A stretch of DNA of 64,000 nucleotides from the NCBI GenBank assembly GCA_022813865.1, contig JALDZX010000018.1, positions 310,001-374,000 on the forward strand, written 5' to 3'. Shown here piece after piece: positions 21,664 to 26,084 of this stretch (positions within the stretch are counted from its first letter, which is position 1; every line of letters begins with the position of its first letter). This stretch comes from Xylographa opegraphella (lineage: Eukaryota). The translations under genes were made by a program, and so were the position numbers. The notes under the pieces are model-generated. The model saw nothing but the letters and a program-made list of their open reading frames with translations. It was not told the origin of the DNA and ran no database searches.

Positions 21664-21797
21664 GGGAGGGGGATTGGGTGCTGCTGATGGGGTTTTGCTG
21701 AGAGGATGGGGATGGGGCCATTGCATCGCGCGGTGTTCAAGGGATATGCATGGGAGGTGCAAGCATGCATTCGAGAAATATGCTTGATATAGATCGT

Positions 21798-23219
21798 TCA
21801 TACGTCGACTCTACGGCGTTTGTCCTCGTACCGCCTTTCATCCGGAGATGGGCTTCTTTTCCGTCTGTCTCTGCTGTCCCTCCTTCGCTGTCGTATTGGT
21901 GAAGGTGATCTGGATGTCGAATACGAGCGAGGTCGTCTGTCCTCAATATCCCGGTGCTCTCGGTCTGGCTTATAGCTTCCGCCTTGATTCCTCGACCATT
22001 GCTTTCCATCCGACGACGCGCGAGGTCCTTCCGGGGCATTCTCTGGAGCTCTCCTCCTTTCGCGGACCTGAGTTGCATTGGCACCGGAAGCTCCACCACC
22101 ACCTCCATCGCGATCCGGCATGAATCTTTCGTCTAAGCCGCCATCCCTCCGTGGACCTTTCCCTTCCAACGCTCCCCACTTCCCCGTATCCTCGCTCTTC
22201 AGGTCCTTGTACTTAGTCCGTCCTTTCCGGCCCAATTTTGTCATATCCCGGATCTGCATATACTGAGGCAGGAGTTCCCGGTTCGTCACATCATCCGCAT
22301 ACCGGCTCCCCATAATATCTCTCCTGTCCAGCCCTTCGGCTTTGGAGTCGTCCTGGAAAAATGCGCCTTTGTGGAAGTACTTCTGTAGATACCCCATCTT
22401 GCCTCGTCCCTCCTGTTCCTCCTTTTGCCCTTCGATAAATACTCTATCTTCCTCGTCTCTTTCTTCCTTGCTGAGATTCCGCCGCCGTTCGATCTCCTCT
22501 CTCTCCCTCTCAGCTACTTCAATGGCCTCCCGCTCTCTCTTCACGCGCTTCAGCTCTCGCAACTTCCACGCAGCCCGCTCAGCTTCCGGGTCCAGCCCAT
22601 CGATATCGTCGACTTCCTCTCCATCCGCCTCCTCATCGTCGTCCCAGTTCTTCTTTCCTGCCGCCTTGGCCGCTGCATTCTTTTCCAGTTGGGCCTGAAC
22701 AAGCTCGTCCGCTTTCTCCTTCCGCCTCGCCTCGTCCTCCGCCCACTTCTCCTCTTCAGTCTTCAAGTCCACTATTGCAGTAGTATACTTCCGCTTATCC
22801 TTCCTAATGAACGTTGGCCGAAGCAGAATCTTCGGCGCTTCCTCCTCACTGCTTTCTTCCTCTTCACTCTCCTCTTCTCCATCCTCGCTGCCCTCCTCCG
22901 ATTCGCTTGACTCGGTCTCAAACCCTTCCTCCTCCGCAGCTTGAGCGGCCTTTTCGGCTTCCAAGCGTGCTGTCTCTAGGGCAGAGGCTTCTGCACGGCG
23001 CGCATTGAGATCAACAGACTTCAGTGTGCTGGCGATCTTCGTGGCAGGGAACGAGGTAGCTTTAGGAGGTGGAGCTGTCTGCGGAGGTGAGGAGTGTGCA
23101 TCTTCCTCGGCTTGCGAATCCTCTTCGCCTTCGGAGGATGACTGAGGGTCTTCAGGACCTTTGCCGGGGCGATAGCGGGTGGGCTTGAGAGGATTGGCGG
23201 TCATGCGCTTGGGAGGCAT
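21798..23219 (-). CDS. MFAP1: MFAP1-family spliceosomal B-complex protein (Spp381/Saf3-like)
   Basis: 473-aa ORF; AWKLRELKRVKREREA, GYLQKYFHKGAFF, LPQYMQIR, GRKGRTKYKDL; RS-rich tail. Confidence 0.92.
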   Translation of the reverse strand: MPPKRMTANPLKPTRYRPGKGPEDPQSSSEGEEDSQAEEDAHSSPPQTAPPPKATSFPATKIASTLKSVDLNARRAEASALETARLEAEKAAQAAEEEGFETESSESEEGSEDGEEESEEEESSEEEAPKILLRPTFIRKDKRKYTTAIVDLKTEEEKWAEDEARRKEKADELVQAQLEKNAAAKAAGKKNWDDDEEADGEEVDDIDGLDPEAERAAWKLRELKRVKREREAIEVAEREREEIERRRNLSKEERDEEDRVFIEGQKEEQEGRGKMGYLQKYFHKGAFFQDDSKAEGLDRRDIMGSRYADDVTNRELLPQYMQIRDMTKLGRKGRTKYKDLKSEDTGKWGALEGKGPRRDGGLDERFMPDRDGGGGGASGANATQVRERRRAPENAPEGPRASSDGKQWSRNQGGSYKPDREHRDIEDRRPRSYSTSRSPSPIRQRRRDSRDRRKRSPSPDERRYEDKRRRVDV

Positions 23220-23234
23220 GGTGTAGATCAGCTA

Positions 23235-23276
23235 AGACGGCCTGTGTGATCGCGGTTCTTCCTAAAGGGTACGTAT
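23235..23276 (-). repeat. Degenerate inverted copy of U1 snRNA nt 1-42
   Basis: Minus-strand ATACGTACCCTTTAGGAAGAACCGCGATCACACAGGCCGTCT versus U1 ATACTTACCTTCTTGGAAGAACCGCGATCAAGCAGGCGGTCT: 35/42 identical, ungapped. Confidence 0.85.
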
Positions 23277-23437
23277 AAGGCGAAAACGAAACCGGGCGAC
23301 GGTACAGACTGGAAGCGCACACCCAATGCAGATGTATCATTTACGCTTCCCCGACGCCTGAGGATAGGTAGCTTTCAGATGGCCAAATGCGGTAACCACA
23401 ACCGTTTACCCGGCCATGAACTAGCGCGTCCCTCAGG

Positions 23438-23445
23438 TATATAAA
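23438..23445 (+). promoter_or_regulatory. TATA box of the U1 gene
   Basis: TATATAAA about 45 nt upstream of the U1 5' end, followed by a pyrimidine tract. Confidence 0.6.
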
Positions 23446-23486
23446 CACCCTTCTCACCTCTGTTGTCCTCTTTTCCTTTTCTTTTC

Positions 23487-23634
23487 ATACTTACCTTCTT
23501 GGAAGAACCGCGATCAAGCAGGCGGTCTCTTACAAAGCGAGTCCTCCATTGCACATCGGGGCGACAAGTCTTGTCGAGTGTCCTTCGGGGCCCTCGCTGG
23601 GGGAATTTTTGATGGTCTACCTCACCCTAGAGGC
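23487..23634 (+). ncRNA. U1: U1 spliceosomal snRNA
   Basis: 5' ATACTTACC; stem-loop I ACCGC-GATCAAGCAG-GCGGT; stem-loop II loop ATTGCAC; TTCG-capped stem III; Sm site AATTTTTG (23604-23611); 3' end approximate. Confidence 0.95.
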
Positions 23635-24390
23635 TTCTTTTCATCATTGTGGTGCCTGGTGCACAACTTTGGAGAAGAGTTCAGTAGTTAGATAGTTGAT
23701 CATATGTAGTAAGATCACAATAATAGATAGCACAAGGTACTATTGTCATCGATGTTACGTGGTTTGGAACAAGTTTGTTCTATTCGCAGTCCTCAACGCA
23801 TCGAGCTCTTTCCGCTACAACACCTCAGCAAAAGTATAGGTAGGGAAGCTCAGAATGACATGCTCTTGCTATCTGGTACCTCATACCAGAAGCCAACGAA
23901 CATTCCCACAGCGATCAGAATCCTTTCGCTGGAAGTACCACCAAGCATAATCTCAGGTTGTGTTGAATCTATCACGGCAGCGAAGTACTCTACCGTGTCG
24001 ATGGAAGCCGCTGTTCCCACGCTCATTAAGCATTGTCCACTCAATCAAAGGTAAAGAAGGTGGTCGTATCTTACGCACCCCGTACCCAGTTCGTCCACTG
24101 TGATCGTGCATACACCGTGCCTGTAGTCCAGTGTGCAACCTACGCACGCTTGCCATGAATCTCACAGTAGTCGAAGTGACGTGAACAAAGATCGAATATG
24201 CTGTCAATGAAATGCCTATGTACACTCCACCGACAACCGTCCGGCCCTTCTGCTCAAATTACACATCAACCATGTCAAGCTCCCGTACCGAATATGCTAT
24301 TCCTCTACCTTACACGACTCAACTGATTATCACCAACCACGCTCCACCCCGCCCCCAACACCACCCACCCCCCCTCCCAGACCCTCGCAC

Positions 24391-26084
24391 TCACAATCCC
24401 TCCACCGCAATCACAGGCGCATACAACGGACAAATATAATCCACCACGATCTGCCGAATCGTAACCTCACCAAACAGGCCATTCGGGCCCAGATCCCCCA
24501 GGTCCACATCCAGATGCGAGCCCAAGCGCGGCCACCCCGGCCCACCCGTCGGGTTCTTCGCGAACCGCGCCCACGCCGTCTGCATGTACGAGCTCAGCGC
24601 GACCTCCTGGGCCGTGGCGCCGGCGGTCGGGTACGTGCCGAACACGAGCGGGATCTCCGAGGAGTGGTACACGCCGGCGTCCGGGAAGGTCTGCGTGTTG
24701 GGGAAGCTGGCGTTGAAGTAGTAGCGCCAGGCGTCGTAGCCCGACGTCGAGGCGAGGTTGGCGAGCGCCGAGGTGGGGCAGAGGAAGGTGGCGTCGGTGA
24801 TGATGGCTGCGATGGCGAAGTAGGGGGTCTGATAGACGGAGAGCGGGTACGCGGCCGCGATGGCGGCTTGGAGGGCGGGCAGGCCCGGAAAGTTGGTGGC
24901 GAGGAAGGTGGTGATGTTCAGGGGCTCGTCGAGGCCGTCTTCGGCGGCGAAGGGGCGCCCTTCGTTGGCGTTGGTACCGATAAGGATGGGAACTTGCGCG
25001 GCAGTGTGGGAGGTGATGGCGAGGGCGACGTTGCCGGTCTCGGTCTTGTTGTCGACGGTCGGAGGAAAGGAGAGCGCCGCGTGCTCAATAACGCTCTTGA
25101 TCTTGGTGGCGGGGACGGCGCGCACGCAGTTTATCTGGGACGTTGCGGCGGTGCAACCGACTGCCGCGACCAAGGTTTCCCATGATGCTGGTCCCGAGCC
25201 CGTGAATGCGGCTGCTTCGCTTTCGAGAATGGCGGCCCGGAATGGAAGGGGAGACGGGGGCACACTGAAGAGCTCTTTGACAGAGTAGCCGCCAGCTGAC
25301 TCGCCGAAGATGGTAACCTTTTTTGGGTCGCCACCGAATTGCTTGATGTTCTGCTGGACCCATTGCAGAGCCATTCGCTGATCGAGGAAGCCGGCGTTTT
25401 GGGAGTCTATAGGGAGTTGAGGGGACGATGAGAATCCGAACACTGGACGAGCTCAGTGGCTTGTCCAGAGTTCTCCTTATGAATAAGGTGCTTACCATTC
25501 GTTCGATAGTTATGAGTTACGAGAACCACATCTTGATTGGCCGCAAATGATGAGCCATCGTAGGGCGGAATATTTGCAGTCCCGAACTGCAGATTGCCCC
25601 CATATATCCAGAACATAACAGTCCTGCCTGTTGCTGGGGCGGGACTGGCAGGTGTGTAGACATTCAGGTACAGGCAGTCTTCGCTTTCAACTGGAGGTGG
25701 TCCTCCAGGGTTGTTGAACACCGCCATAGTGAAGTTTCTCGATGGCTCAGGGTCTATACGAAAGTTAGAAGCTCGTGTGTCAACTTTCCATGCCGACAAC
25801 TCACAGTTGAATTGCTGTATACATGCGTCCTTGAGGGTCGCGGCATTTATTGGTTTGGACCATGACGCCGGGGCTGATGGAGGAGAGAATCGCTGCGGCG
25901 GCGACGCTGCGAATGGTATGCCAAGGAATTTATTGACTGCGACTGTTGCTGATGGTAGCGTCGTTGTAGTTCCAATAACTACTCCAGACGATATGGTTAC
26001 AGTGGGAATTGCAGCAGAGACAATCTGAACAACTAGCAGTAGAGAACACAAGGAAAGAGCGGTAAGAGGAGATTGAAAATGCAT
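24391..26084 (-). CDS. Secreted type-B carboxylesterase/lipase
   Basis: Signal peptide, FLGIPFA, SEDCLYLNV, WIYGG, NYRT, FGGDP..VTIFGESAG, HSSEIP; two introns. Confidence 0.93.

What the first reader, a model, noticed from the sequence alone, without database searches (positions are those of the whole stretch)
23235..23528. U1 snRNA look-alike directly upstream of the start codon of the divergent splicing factor MFAP1
Seen: U1 and MFAP1 are head-to-head about 270 bp apart. On the MFAP1 sense strand, 23276-23235 repeats U1 nt 1-42 (35/42 identical, 16-nt exact core GGAAGAACCGCGATCA) and ends 15 nt before the ATG. The splice-site-pairing arm is mutated (ACGTACC versus ACTTACC), the GATCA loop start is retained and the stem carries one C-C mismatch. 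Established: U1-70K binds the stem-loop I loop, and snRNP proteins such as U1A regulate mRNAs through snRNA-mimic elements. Inference: an inverted U1 duplication co-opted as the MFAP1 start site/5' UTR, possibly coupling a B-complex factor to free U1-70K; on the other strand it is antisense to U1. It may also be a decaying U1 pseudogene fragment.
Basis: partly seen in the sequence, partly recalled or inferred. Interest (0 to 1): 0.8.

Follow-up and report, generated by a model that had tools for sequence, protein, structure and literature searches.

The report
Decaying inverted U1 fragment before MFAP1
A lichen fungus carries a real but eroded 57-base back-to-front copy of the start of its U1 splicing-RNA gene just ahead of the neighbouring MFAP1 gene, and it looks like a leftover of a local DNA copying slip rather than a regulatory device.

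Summary
A U1 snRNA gene (23487-23635, +) lies head-to-head with an intronless MFAP1 ORF (21798-23219, -), 267 bp apart. On the MFAP1 sense strand, 23276-23235 repeats U1 nt 1-42 (35/42, 16-nt exact core). The match runs on into the untranscribed U1 flank (arms 23235-23291 / 23472-23528, 45/57). This is far beyond chance.

The proposed function is not supported:
- The copy breaks an SL1 pair (C23-G38) kept in 8 of 8 lichen U1s and loses the lower stem. It folds at -4.8 versus -11.7 kcal/mol, no better than shuffles.
- The exact core is not longer than uniform decay would give (P 0.14-0.19).
- U1-MFAP1 pairing is old: 23 of 26 lichen-fungal loci have it, 0 of 54 other fungal loci. None of the 23 carries an inverted copy of its own U1.
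- A relative at 80% MFAP1 identity has no SL1 loop motif in the 63 nt before its ATG.

Best reading (about 0.6): a lineage-specific, DNA-level inverted duplication, of the template-switch kind, now decaying. It may lie in the MFAP1 leader or core promoter by position only.

Untested: the MFAP1 start site (no RNA data) and the closest Xylographa genomes (no DNA reachable).

Interest is low. The conserved U1-MFAP1 gene pair is the more notable by-product.

The parts
23235..23291 (-). Inverted partial copy of the U1 gene (U1 -15..+42) on the MFAP1 sense strand. It ends 15 nt before the MFAP1 ATG. There are 12 differences from the U1 arm.
   Evidence: 45/57; 35/42 in +1..+42; 10/15 in the flank; score 54 against shuffle maximum 24; nhmmer E 6.6e-4.
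23247..23262 (-). 16-nt exact core shared with U1 nt 15-30. It covers the 5' side of stem-loop I and the first five loop bases (GATCA).
   Evidence: two exact matches in the window; a run of at least 16 is expected in 14-19% of uniformly decayed copies.
23472..23528 (+). Source arm: U1 promoter-proximal pyrimidine tract (-15..-1) plus U1 nt 1-42.
23487..23635 (+). U1 snRNA gene: 5' end ATACTTACC, SL1 loop 23512-23521, SL2 loop ATTGCAC 23548-23554, Sm site AATTTTTGA 23604-23612, short terminal hairpin.
   Evidence: RF00003, 51.4 bits, E 7e-12; 128 bits against the lichen U1 profile; 28 of 37 pairs covary in 8 lichen U1s.
23407..23414 (+). TACCCGGC, a candidate upstream promoter element of U1 at -80..-73.
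   Evidence: the only 8-mer shared by 5 of 10 intergenic regions. Function is inferred.
23438..23445 (+). TATATAAA at U1 -49..-42. TATA-like boxes stand at a similar place in the other lichen U1 loci.
   Evidence: read from the sequences. Function is inferred.
23638..23643 (+). TTTTCA just past the U1 3' end, invariant in 8 of 8 lichen U1 loci. Candidate 3'-end formation signal.
   Evidence: invariant columns T152-A157. Function is inferred.
21798..23219 (-). MFAP1 (Spp381-type B-complex protein) ORF, 473 aa, no intron needed.
   Evidence: PF06991, E 2.9e-67; 89% identity to a Xylographa bjoerkii protein.

Best explanation
The element is a short DNA-level inverted duplicate of the start of the adjacent U1 snRNA gene, covering about U1 -15 to +42 (57 bp). 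It was written into the MFAP1-proximal side of an old, shared 267-bp divergent U1-MFAP1 promoter region in the lineage of this Xylographaceae-like lichen fungus. The most likely cause is a replication template switch or a similar local event that replaces a stretch with the reverse complement of nearby sequence.

Since then the copy has drifted. The U1 arm is held by selection. The copy has 12 changes, including two in the otherwise invariant splice-site-pairing end and one that breaks stem-loop I. As RNA it no longer forms a U1-70K-type hairpin.

By position it probably lies in or at the MFAP1 leader or core promoter, but nothing indicates a role beyond that.

Shown: the homology, its limits, the loss of fold, its absence in the relatives that could be reached, and the old synteny. 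Inferred: the mechanism of origin, neutrality, and its location relative to the MFAP1 start site.
For: (1) Real homology that ends abruptly at both ends: 45/57, score 54 against shuffle maximum 24.

(2) It includes the untranscribed U1 flank: 10 of 15 identical. P is 0.0016 against all 15-mers of the window and 0.053 against equally pyrimidine-rich ones. It holds only the 5' 42 nt of U1. Both points favour a DNA copy over an RNA-derived one.

(3) The copy is not a gene. Homology ends at +42 with no SL2 loop and no Sm site. No TACCCGGC or TATA stands upstream of it.

(4) Decay hits positions that are constrained in real U1. T5 and T10 are invariant in 8 of 8 lichen U1s and are changed in the copy. 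G38 pairs with C23 in 8 of 8, with compensatory changes in 3, and is C in the copy.

(5) Fold: U1 nt 1-49 folds at -11.7 kcal/mol with the expected 10-nt loop. The copy folds at -4.8, and 181 of 200 shuffles fold at least as well. In a 72-nt context the SL1 shape is not in the minimum-energy or centroid fold.

(6) No sign of selective retention: an exact run of at least 16 occurs in 14% (57 nt, 12 changes) or 19% (42 nt, 7 changes) of uniformly decayed copies.

(7) Lineage-specific as far as can be seen:
- 23 of 26 lichen-fungal MFAP1 loci have U1 head-to-head at 246-390 bp.
- In all 23, the best match of their own U1 start to the intergenic region scores 13-24, inside the shuffle range.
- P0004 (80% identity) carries a 21-aa gene-caller extension that translates the 63 nt before its ATG. 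It is incompatible with GATCA or GCTCA in any position and with the 16-nt core at up to 4 mismatches. Its overall fit to the copy is 24 of 42, equal to the shuffle mean of 24.3.
- A contig of organism B (run X2) that covers 23159-23222 continues with 30 letters unlike the window, judged by eye.

(8) The intergenic length of 267 bp is within the range of relatives (246-390). This fits replacement rather than insertion, as in the template-switch model (PMC5453318, passages read).
Against: The closest relatives could not be examined at the DNA level. These are five Xylographa species at about 89% protein identity, plus Ptychographa and Lambiella. So 'lineage-specific' is bounded only by relatives at 80% identity or less, and the copy's 21% divergence could mean it is old and shared within the family.

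The MFAP1 start site is unknown.

The five loop positions that are invariant in lichen U1s (G26, T28, C29, A30, G35) are all kept in the copy, and its two loop changes fall at positions that vary among species.

The copy supplies the only pyrimidine-rich tract within 75 nt of the ATG. In other lichen loci such tracts lie within about 60 nt of the MFAP1 ATG. A promoter or leader role is therefore plausible.

The flank extension is only marginally significant once composition is allowed for (P 0.053).

The template-switch origin is an inference without an ancestral state.
Confidence: 0.6

Rival explanations
1. Promoter or leader co-option at the DNA level. The duplicated U1 start module (pyrimidine tract plus initiator-like ATAC) now positions MFAP1 transcription initiation. 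The two genes would then fire from mirrored core elements of one bidirectional promoter, and the MFAP1 mRNA would begin with a U1-like leader of about 57 nt. The RNA shape would be irrelevant.
For: All 8 lichen U1 genes have a CT-rich tract directly before +1. The copy keeps 13 of 15 pyrimidines there. In other lichen loci pyrimidine-rich stretches lie within about 60 nt upstream of the MFAP1 ATG, and the copy occupies that place here. The U1-MFAP1 pairing is conserved, so a shared promoter region is under some constraint.
Against: There are no transcript data. No U1-like module stands on the MFAP1 side in any of the 23 syntenic loci, so MFAP1 does not need one. No motif is shared on the MFAP1 side. 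An 11-nt match in L002 is within the shuffle range.
Confidence: 0.2
2. The copy is a stem-loop I mimic in the MFAP1 5' UTR that binds free U1-70K and couples MFAP1 output to U1 snRNP status.
For: The loop starts GATCA, and all five loop positions invariant in lichen U1s are kept. The location 15-57 nt before the ATG is compatible with a 5' UTR. snRNA-mimic regulation exists for U1A (recalled).
Against: The stem is broken at a pair kept in 8 of 8 U1s, and the lower stem lies outside the homology. The fold is -4.8 kcal/mol, no better than shuffles, and is absent in context. The core is not longer than under neutral decay. The copy is absent in 23 syntenic loci and in P0004's upstream 63 nt. MFAP1 is not the SL1-binding protein. 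The searches listed no paper on an SL1 mimic or on U1-MFAP1 coupling.
Confidence: 0.05
3. RNA-derived origin. The copy is a 3'-truncated retro-pseudogene of U1, like the self-primed class of mammalian snRNA pseudogenes, that happened to land next to the U1 gene.
For: Only the 5' 42 nt of the RNA are clearly represented. The similarity in the flank could be compositional (P 0.053 among pyrimidine-rich 15-mers). Contigs of X1 break inside U1 and show other flanks, so further U1 copies exist in the data. One departs from the window at 23493.
Against: The flank match is 10 of 15 with a 9-of-10 block. No flanking direct repeats were reported around the copy. A landing 180 bp from the parent gene in inverted orientation is what local template switching predicts, not random reinsertion.
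Confidence: 0.1
4. Antisense or hairpin role. A + strand transcript crossing 23235-23528 would pair with U1's 5' end or fold into a long hairpin and act through double-stranded RNA.
For: A 316-nt + strand RNA spanning both arms would fold at -122.6 kcal/mol, z -6.8. The + strand of the copy carries GGTACGTAT, a 5'-splice-site-like word.
Against: The U1 start site lies inside the right arm, and its TATA and TACCCGGC elements lie between the arms. The U1 RNA therefore lacks the left arm. No promoter for a + strand transcript upstream of 23235 is evident, because that region is the MFAP1 coding sequence read antisense. The element is not conserved.
Confidence: 0.03

Closest known systems
Truncated or partial U1 snRNA pseudogenes of animals (recalled from the literature of the 1980s; no call)
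   Same: A non-functional partial copy of U1 that keeps the 5' part, has a mutated splice-site-pairing end, and lacks the Sm site and 3' hairpins.
   Different: It is only 57 bp, inverted, 180 bp from its parent gene, and appears to include 15 nt of untranscribed flank. A local DNA event is more likely than dispersal or retro-copying. I found no description for fungi in the listings of the searches.
Short template-switch mutations that create inverted repeats (four-point model; PMC5453318, passages read; PMC8794818, listing and start of abstract only)
   Same: A stretch is replaced by the reverse complement of nearby sequence, giving a new inverted repeat with sharp ends and no net change in length.
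   Different: The event here cannot be reconstructed because no close outgroup DNA was reachable. The arm length (57 bp) and spacer (180 bp) could not be compared with the published size range from the passages I read.
U1A polyadenylation-inhibition element and other snRNA-mimic autoregulatory sites (recalled). A U1A stem-loop II mimic in a lichen fungus was noted earlier in this scan (e1-7585404)
   Same: An mRNA-borne sequence that resembles an snRNA protein-binding loop.
   Different: Known cases regulate the gene of the very protein that binds the loop, keep the closing stem, and are conserved. Here the gene is MFAP1, not U1-70K. The stem is broken and the element is absent in relatives.
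Conserved divergent (bidirectional-promoter) gene pairs
   Same: U1 and MFAP1 share a 246-390 bp head-to-head spacer in 23 of 26 lichen-fungal loci.
   Different: This pairs an snRNA gene with a spliceosomal protein gene. No paper in the listing holds all three terms U1 snRNA, MFAP1 and bidirectional promoter. Co-regulation is not shown.

Membership tests
U1 snRNA gene (Rfam RF00003): the gene at 23487-23635 | 5' end ACUUACC that pairs with 5' splice sites | tested here: met
   ATACTTACC at 23487-23495. Positions 1-11 are invariant in 8 of 8 lichen U1s.
U1 snRNA gene (Rfam RF00003): the gene at 23487-23635 | Stem-loops I and II with their conserved loops, the four-way junction and the Sm site | tested here: met
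   Full-length match to model positions 1-166. Loops GATCAAGCAG and ATTGCAC and Sm site AATTTTTGA are present. 28 of 37 consensus pairs have compensatory changes.
U1 snRNA gene (Rfam RF00003): the gene at 23487-23635 | Score at or above Rfam's gathering threshold | tested here: not met
   51.4 bits against 69.5, although E is 7e-12. The shortfall comes from short or divergent helices, and the covariation supports membership.
U1 snRNA gene: the copy at 23235-23291 | Intact splice-site-pairing end | tested here: not met
   ATACGTACCC. T5->G and T10->C fall at positions invariant in 8 of 8 U1s.
U1 snRNA gene: the copy at 23235-23291 | Stem-loops II to IV and the Sm site | tested here: not met
   Homology ends at +42. 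Beyond it identity is at background level. In one search the nhmmer alignment beyond +42 runs into the MFAP1 start region at falling posterior probability, scoring 14.4 bits over model positions 1-61.
U1 snRNA gene: the copy at 23235-23291 | Own upstream promoter elements (TACCCGGC-type element, TATA) | tested here: not met
   Neither is present in the 80 nt upstream of the copy on the MFAP1 sense strand.
snRNA-mimic regulatory element (U1A PIE type / proposed U1-70K stem-loop I mimic) | Loop sequence of the mimicked hairpin retained | tested here: met
   GATCACACAG against GATCAAGCAG. All five loop positions invariant among 8 lichen U1s are kept. This is not more than chance decay allows.
snRNA-mimic regulatory element (U1A PIE type / proposed U1-70K stem-loop I mimic) | Stable closing stem that presents the loop | tested here: not met
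   C-C mismatch at the pair C23-G38, which is kept in 8 of 8 U1s. The lower stem lies outside the homology. Fold is -4.8 against -11.7 kcal/mol, with 181 of 200 shuffles as good.
snRNA-mimic regulatory element (U1A PIE type / proposed U1-70K stem-loop I mimic) | Lies within the transcript of the regulated gene | not testable with these tools
The start site is unknown.
snRNA-mimic regulatory element (U1A PIE type / proposed U1-70K stem-loop I mimic) | The regulated gene encodes the protein that binds the mimicked loop | tested here: not met
   The gene is MFAP1 (PF06991), not U1-70K. That U1-70K is the SL1 binder is recalled knowledge.
snRNA-mimic regulatory element (U1A PIE type / proposed U1-70K stem-loop I mimic) | Conserved in orthologous genes | tested here: not met
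   Absent in 23 of 23 syntenic lichen loci and in the 63 nt upstream of the ATG of P0004. The nearest relatives (Xylographa spp.) were not testable.
Template-switch inverted duplication | Reverse-complement copy of nearby sequence with sharp ends | tested here: met
   Arms are 180 nt apart, 45/57 identical, with background identity outside.
Template-switch inverted duplication | Replacement of the ancestral stretch, shown by a close outgroup | not testable with these tools
   No DNA of close relatives could be fetched. The spacer length of 267 bp is within the range 246-390 of relatives, which is compatible but not decisive.

The most novel reading that the evidence does not exclude
The mirrored U1 start module is not junk. 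It makes MFAP1 initiate at a U1-type start, so the mRNA of a B-complex protein begins with a U1-like 5' end and a relaxed stem-loop I. That leader would be sampled by U1-70K, or by snRNA-specific cap, export or initiation factors. Together with the anciently conserved head-to-head U1-MFAP1 promoter of Lecanoromycetes, this would tie synthesis of a tri-snRNP or B-complex factor to U1 snRNP supply.
Probability: 0.06. Interest if true: 0.7.

Novelty: new member of a known kind. Interest (0 to 1): 0.22.

Why it matters
As it stands, this is mainly a caution. A striking look-alike of a functional RNA next to a functionally related gene can be the by-product of a local copying slip inside a shared promoter. 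If the copy turned out to be conserved in Xylographaceae and to form the MFAP1 leader, it would be a rare case of an snRNA fragment recruited into an mRNA.

The by-product has more lasting value. The U1 snRNA gene and the spliceosomal MFAP1 gene have stayed head-to-head, 246-390 bp apart, across distant lichen-forming fungi. This gives a simple system for asking whether an snRNA gene and a spliceosomal protein gene are co-regulated from one promoter region. It also shows that lichen U1 genes fall below Rfam's gathering score and so go unannotated.

Tried and rejected
- Whole-genome search: no genome is held for this window. Other U1 copies and fragments could therefore not be mapped.
- RNA evidence: no RNA holder listed. 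The MFAP1 start site stays unknown.
- Read laying at 80% likeness: contigs of organisms B and C (X2, X3) gave no cover over 23240-23470. This says nothing about presence or absence there. X3 contig 16 links an MFAP1 piece (22186-22403) and a U1 piece (23583-23618) with 1469 letters between them, against 1179 in the window. That only shows the linkage in organism C.
- Rfam at gathering threshold: 0 matches in the window.
- Earlier notes of this scan: nothing near the place or by sequence. By words, only conceptually related items turned up.
- Shared motifs on the MFAP1 side of the spacer: none. The only shared 8-mer is the U1-side TACCCGGC.
- An 11-nt match in L002 between its U1 start and a site about 35 nt before its ATG scores 17, inside the shuffle range. 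Rejected as evidence for a mirrored initiator.
- P0004 shares 'HRP' and an 11-of-12 compatible island (CACAGGCCGTC-like) with the 3' end of the copy, at a different distance from the ATG. This is too weak and too degenerate to call orthology.
- RIP-like decay: the 12 changes are not dominated by C-to-T or G-to-A. Not pursued further.
- A protein search with spurious ORFs that cross the copy, hoping to find gene-caller artefacts from close relatives, was considered and not run. Such ORFs overlap MFAP1 or lack start codons, so the chance of a hit seemed too small for the cost.
- Literature: searches listed no paper on a stem-loop I mimic, on a U1-MFAP1 gene pair, or on snRNA genes of Lecanoromycetes. 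Only the listings were seen.

Full report
**Anatomy**

The window comes from a lichen-forming ascomycete. Its MFAP1 protein is 89% identical to that of Xylographa bjoerkii, 79% to Lambiella insularis and 76% to Ptychographa xylographoides. Xylographa belongs to Lecanoromycetes, Ostropomycetidae, Baeomycetales, Xylographaceae.

On the - strand, 21798-23219 is an uninterrupted 473-aa ORF with a full MFAP1 domain (PF06991, E 2.9e-67). An in-frame TAG lies 15 nt upstream, so the ATG at 23219 is the first possible start.

On the + strand, 23487-23635 is a U1 snRNA gene. Rfam's U1 model matches end to end at 51.4 bits, E 7e-12. That is under the curated threshold of 69.5, which is why the gathering-threshold scan found nothing. 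The gene has these features:
- ATACTTACC at its 5' end
- a 10-nt stem-loop I loop, GATCAAGCAG (23512-23521)
- the loop II word ATTGCAC (23548-23554)
- an Sm site AATTTTTGA (23604-23612)

Aligned with seven other lichen U1 genes found here, 28 of 37 consensus base pairs show compensatory changes. The gene is therefore genuine. The two genes are head-to-head with 267 bp between them.

**The observation**

The reverse complement of 23235-23276 matches U1 nt 1-42 at 35 of 42 positions, with an exact 16-mer (23247-23262 / 23501-23516). The copy ends 15 nt before the ATG.

The similarity also continues for 15 nt into the untranscribed pyrimidine tract upstream of U1 +1 (10 of 15). The repeat arms are therefore 23235-23291 and 23472-23528, 45 of 57 identical and 180 nt apart. 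Identity falls to background immediately outside them.

This is not chance:
- The local alignment score is 54, against a maximum of 24 in 200 shuffles.
- A profile of lichen U1s finds the copy at E 6.6e-4 in the whole window, and nothing else below E 1.
- The flank extension has P 0.0016 against all 15-mers of the window, but only 0.053 against equally pyrimidine-rich ones. It is likely but not certain.

A contig of run X1 spans 21700-23513 without a difference. X1 may be the data the window was assembled from.

**State of the copy**

The 12 differences are at U1 positions -11, -5, -4, -3, -1, 5, 10, 12, 14, 31, 32 and 38.
- T5 and T10 belong to the 11-nt 5' end that is invariant in 8 of 8 lichen U1s.
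- G38 pairs with C23. That pair is kept in 8 of 8, as C-G in 5 and G-C in 3. The copy has C-C.
- The lower half of stem-loop I needs U1 nt 43-45, which lie beyond the end of the homology.

Folding bears this out. U1 nt 1-49 folds into the expected hairpin at -11.7 kcal/mol. The corresponding 49 nt of the copy reach only -4.8 kcal/mol, and 181 of 200 shuffles fold at least as well. In a 72-nt context from the flank to the ATG, the hairpin is not part of the minimum-energy or centroid fold.

The loop itself is well kept. All five loop positions invariant among lichens are retained, and the two changes fall at variable positions. However, a perfect run of at least 16 nt arises in 14% (57 nt, 12 changes) or 19% (42 nt, 7 changes) of copies that decay uniformly. 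The pattern gives no statistical sign of selection.

The copy has no SL2 loop, no Sm site, and no TACCCGGC or TATA element upstream of it. It is a gene fragment.

**Relatives**

No genome is held for the window. I therefore fetched 80 MFAP1 loci with flanks from metagenome contigs.

In 23 of the 26 best loci (L001-L026, all from lichen metagenome assemblies, 59-73% identity), a U1 gene lies head-to-head with MFAP1, 246-390 bp away. The three exceptions are:
- L009, with 3 kb of upstream sequence and no U1
- L013 and L020, which hold fewer than 350 nt upstream

These 23 loci fall into seven clearly different U1 sequence types. Their MFAP1 is closest to named proteins of Physcia stellaris (82-85%), Lecanora helva (76-77%), Lasallia pustulata (71-74%) and Protoblastenia rupestris (65-73%). 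Physcia belongs to Lecanoromycetidae, a different subclass from Xylographa. The pairing is therefore old within Lecanoromycetes.

None of the other 54 loci (L027-L080) has a U1 by profile or by motif. These are mostly other fungi, and by my reading of the table, 47 of them hold at least 580 nt upstream.

A contig of organism C (run X3) also joins an MFAP1 piece and a U1 piece.

In contrast to the pairing, the inverted copy is not shared. In all 23 syntenic loci, the best match between their own U1 start (-20..+70) and the spacer scores 13-24 on the MFAP1 sense strand and 13-17 in direct orientation. Both are inside the shuffle range.

One closer relative can be glimpsed indirectly. P0004 (80% identity, from a Logan contig) was called from an upstream ATG, so its first 21 residues translate the 63 nt before the true start. 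Those residues are incompatible with GATCA or GCTCA anywhere and with the 16-nt core at up to 4 mismatches. They fit the 42-nt copy no better than shuffled residues do (24 of 42 against a mean of 24.3).

A contig of organism B (run X2) that covers the first codons of MFAP1 continues upstream with letters unlike the window, by eye.

The five sequenced Xylographa species would be the real test, and their DNA could not be reached with these tools.

**Origin**

Several features point to a DNA-level local event:
- an inverted copy of nearby sequence with sharp ends
- the copy covers an untranscribed flank plus only the first 42 nt of the RNA
- it sits 180 bp from its parent
- the spacer is no longer than in relatives

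This is the pattern described for short template switches, in which a stretch is replaced by the reverse complement of a neighbouring stretch (PMC5453318, passages read). It remains an inference, because the ancestral state is not known.

A self-primed, 3'-truncated retro-copy is the alternative (recalled from mammalian snRNA pseudogenes). It is less likely given the flank match and the location.

Contigs of X1 break inside U1, and their summed depth there is about four times that of the flanks. Loose ends show other upstream and downstream flanks. More U1 copies therefore exist in those data. One of them departs from the window at 23493, that is, inside the splice-site-pairing end.

**Function**

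I commit to the reading that the copy is a decaying by-product with no RNA-mimic role (about 0.6).

The most credible functional alternative is at the DNA level (about 0.2). All lichen U1 genes have a CT-rich tract right before +1. In other lichens MFAP1 has CT-rich stretches within about 60 nt of its ATG, and here the copy supplies that tract. The copy may thus have become, or replaced, the MFAP1 start region. In that case the mRNA would begin with a U1-like leader.

The U1-70K model (about 0.05) fails on four counts: stem stability, conservation, lack of excess retention, and logic. Known mimics regulate the gene of the binding protein itself (recalled).

A hairpin or antisense role would need a + strand transcript across both arms. 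Such an RNA would fold very stably (-122.6 kcal/mol, z -6.8). But the U1 start site and its promoter elements lie within or between the arms, so U1 RNA does not include the left arm.

**Comparison and novelty**

The thing works like, and is best filed with, partial snRNA pseudogenes and template-switch inverted repeats. It is not a member of the U1 gene family, because three defining features were tested and not met. It also fails three of five features of an snRNA-mimic element.

The searches listed no paper on a stem-loop I mimic, on a U1-MFAP1 pair, or on snRNA genes in Lecanoromycetes. I saw only the listings.

The conserved U1-MFAP1 divergent pair, with a shared TACCCGGC element (5 of 10 spacers) and TATA-like boxes on the U1 side, is the more interesting by-product.

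**Limits**

- No transcript data, so no start site.
- No DNA from relatives closer than 80% protein identity.
- No whole genome.
- The age of the copy and its position relative to the transcript remain open.
- No supplementary files bear on these claims.

Noticed in passing
window 21798-23635; loci L001-L026: U1 snRNA and MFAP1 are head-to-head, 246-390 bp apart, in 23 of 26 lichen-fungal metagenome loci covering seven U1 sequence types. They are paired in 0 of 54 other fungal loci. This is an old pairing of an snRNA gene with a spliceosomal protein gene, specific to Lecanoromycetes, and none of the papers listed holds all three search terms.
   Followed up: partly
window 23484-23652 (run X1): Contigs of X1 break inside U1, with summed depth about 4 times that of the flanks. 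Loose ends show other upstream and downstream flanks, so further U1 copies exist in the data. One departs from the window at 23493, inside the splice-site-pairing end, and may be a truncated or re-targeted U1. Compare earlier notes e1-7559355 and e1-7702249 on fungal U1-like genes with altered 5' ends.
   Followed up: no
window 23407-23414 and 23438-23445; U1 upstream regions of L002, L010, L011, L017: The candidate U1 promoter has a TACCCGGC element followed by a TATA-like box. The gap between them is 12-14 nt in four other lichen lineages and 23 nt in the window, about one helical turn more.
   Followed up: partly
window 23637-23644; alignment A2 columns for T152-A157: TTTTCA just behind the U1 3' hairpin is invariant in 8 of 8 lichen U1 loci, which suggests a 3'-end formation signal. 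A near-identical word (CTTTTCAT) also spans the U1 start site in the window (23481-23488).
   Followed up: no
window 23487-23631: Lichen U1 genes score below Rfam's gathering threshold (51.4 against 69.5 bits), so standard annotation misses them.
   Followed up: yes
protein P0004: The 495-aa form of a relative's MFAP1 is a gene-caller extension from an upstream ATG. The first 21 residues are translated 5' flank. Such extensions can be used to peek at otherwise unreachable upstream DNA.
   Followed up: yes
window 24391-26084 (-): Two adjacent ORFs (350 aa and 225 aa) read like the two halves of a secreted type-B carboxylesterase or lipase, with an FGESAGG-type motif. They are probably one gene split by an intron. 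The family assignment is from recall and was not scanned.
   Followed up: no
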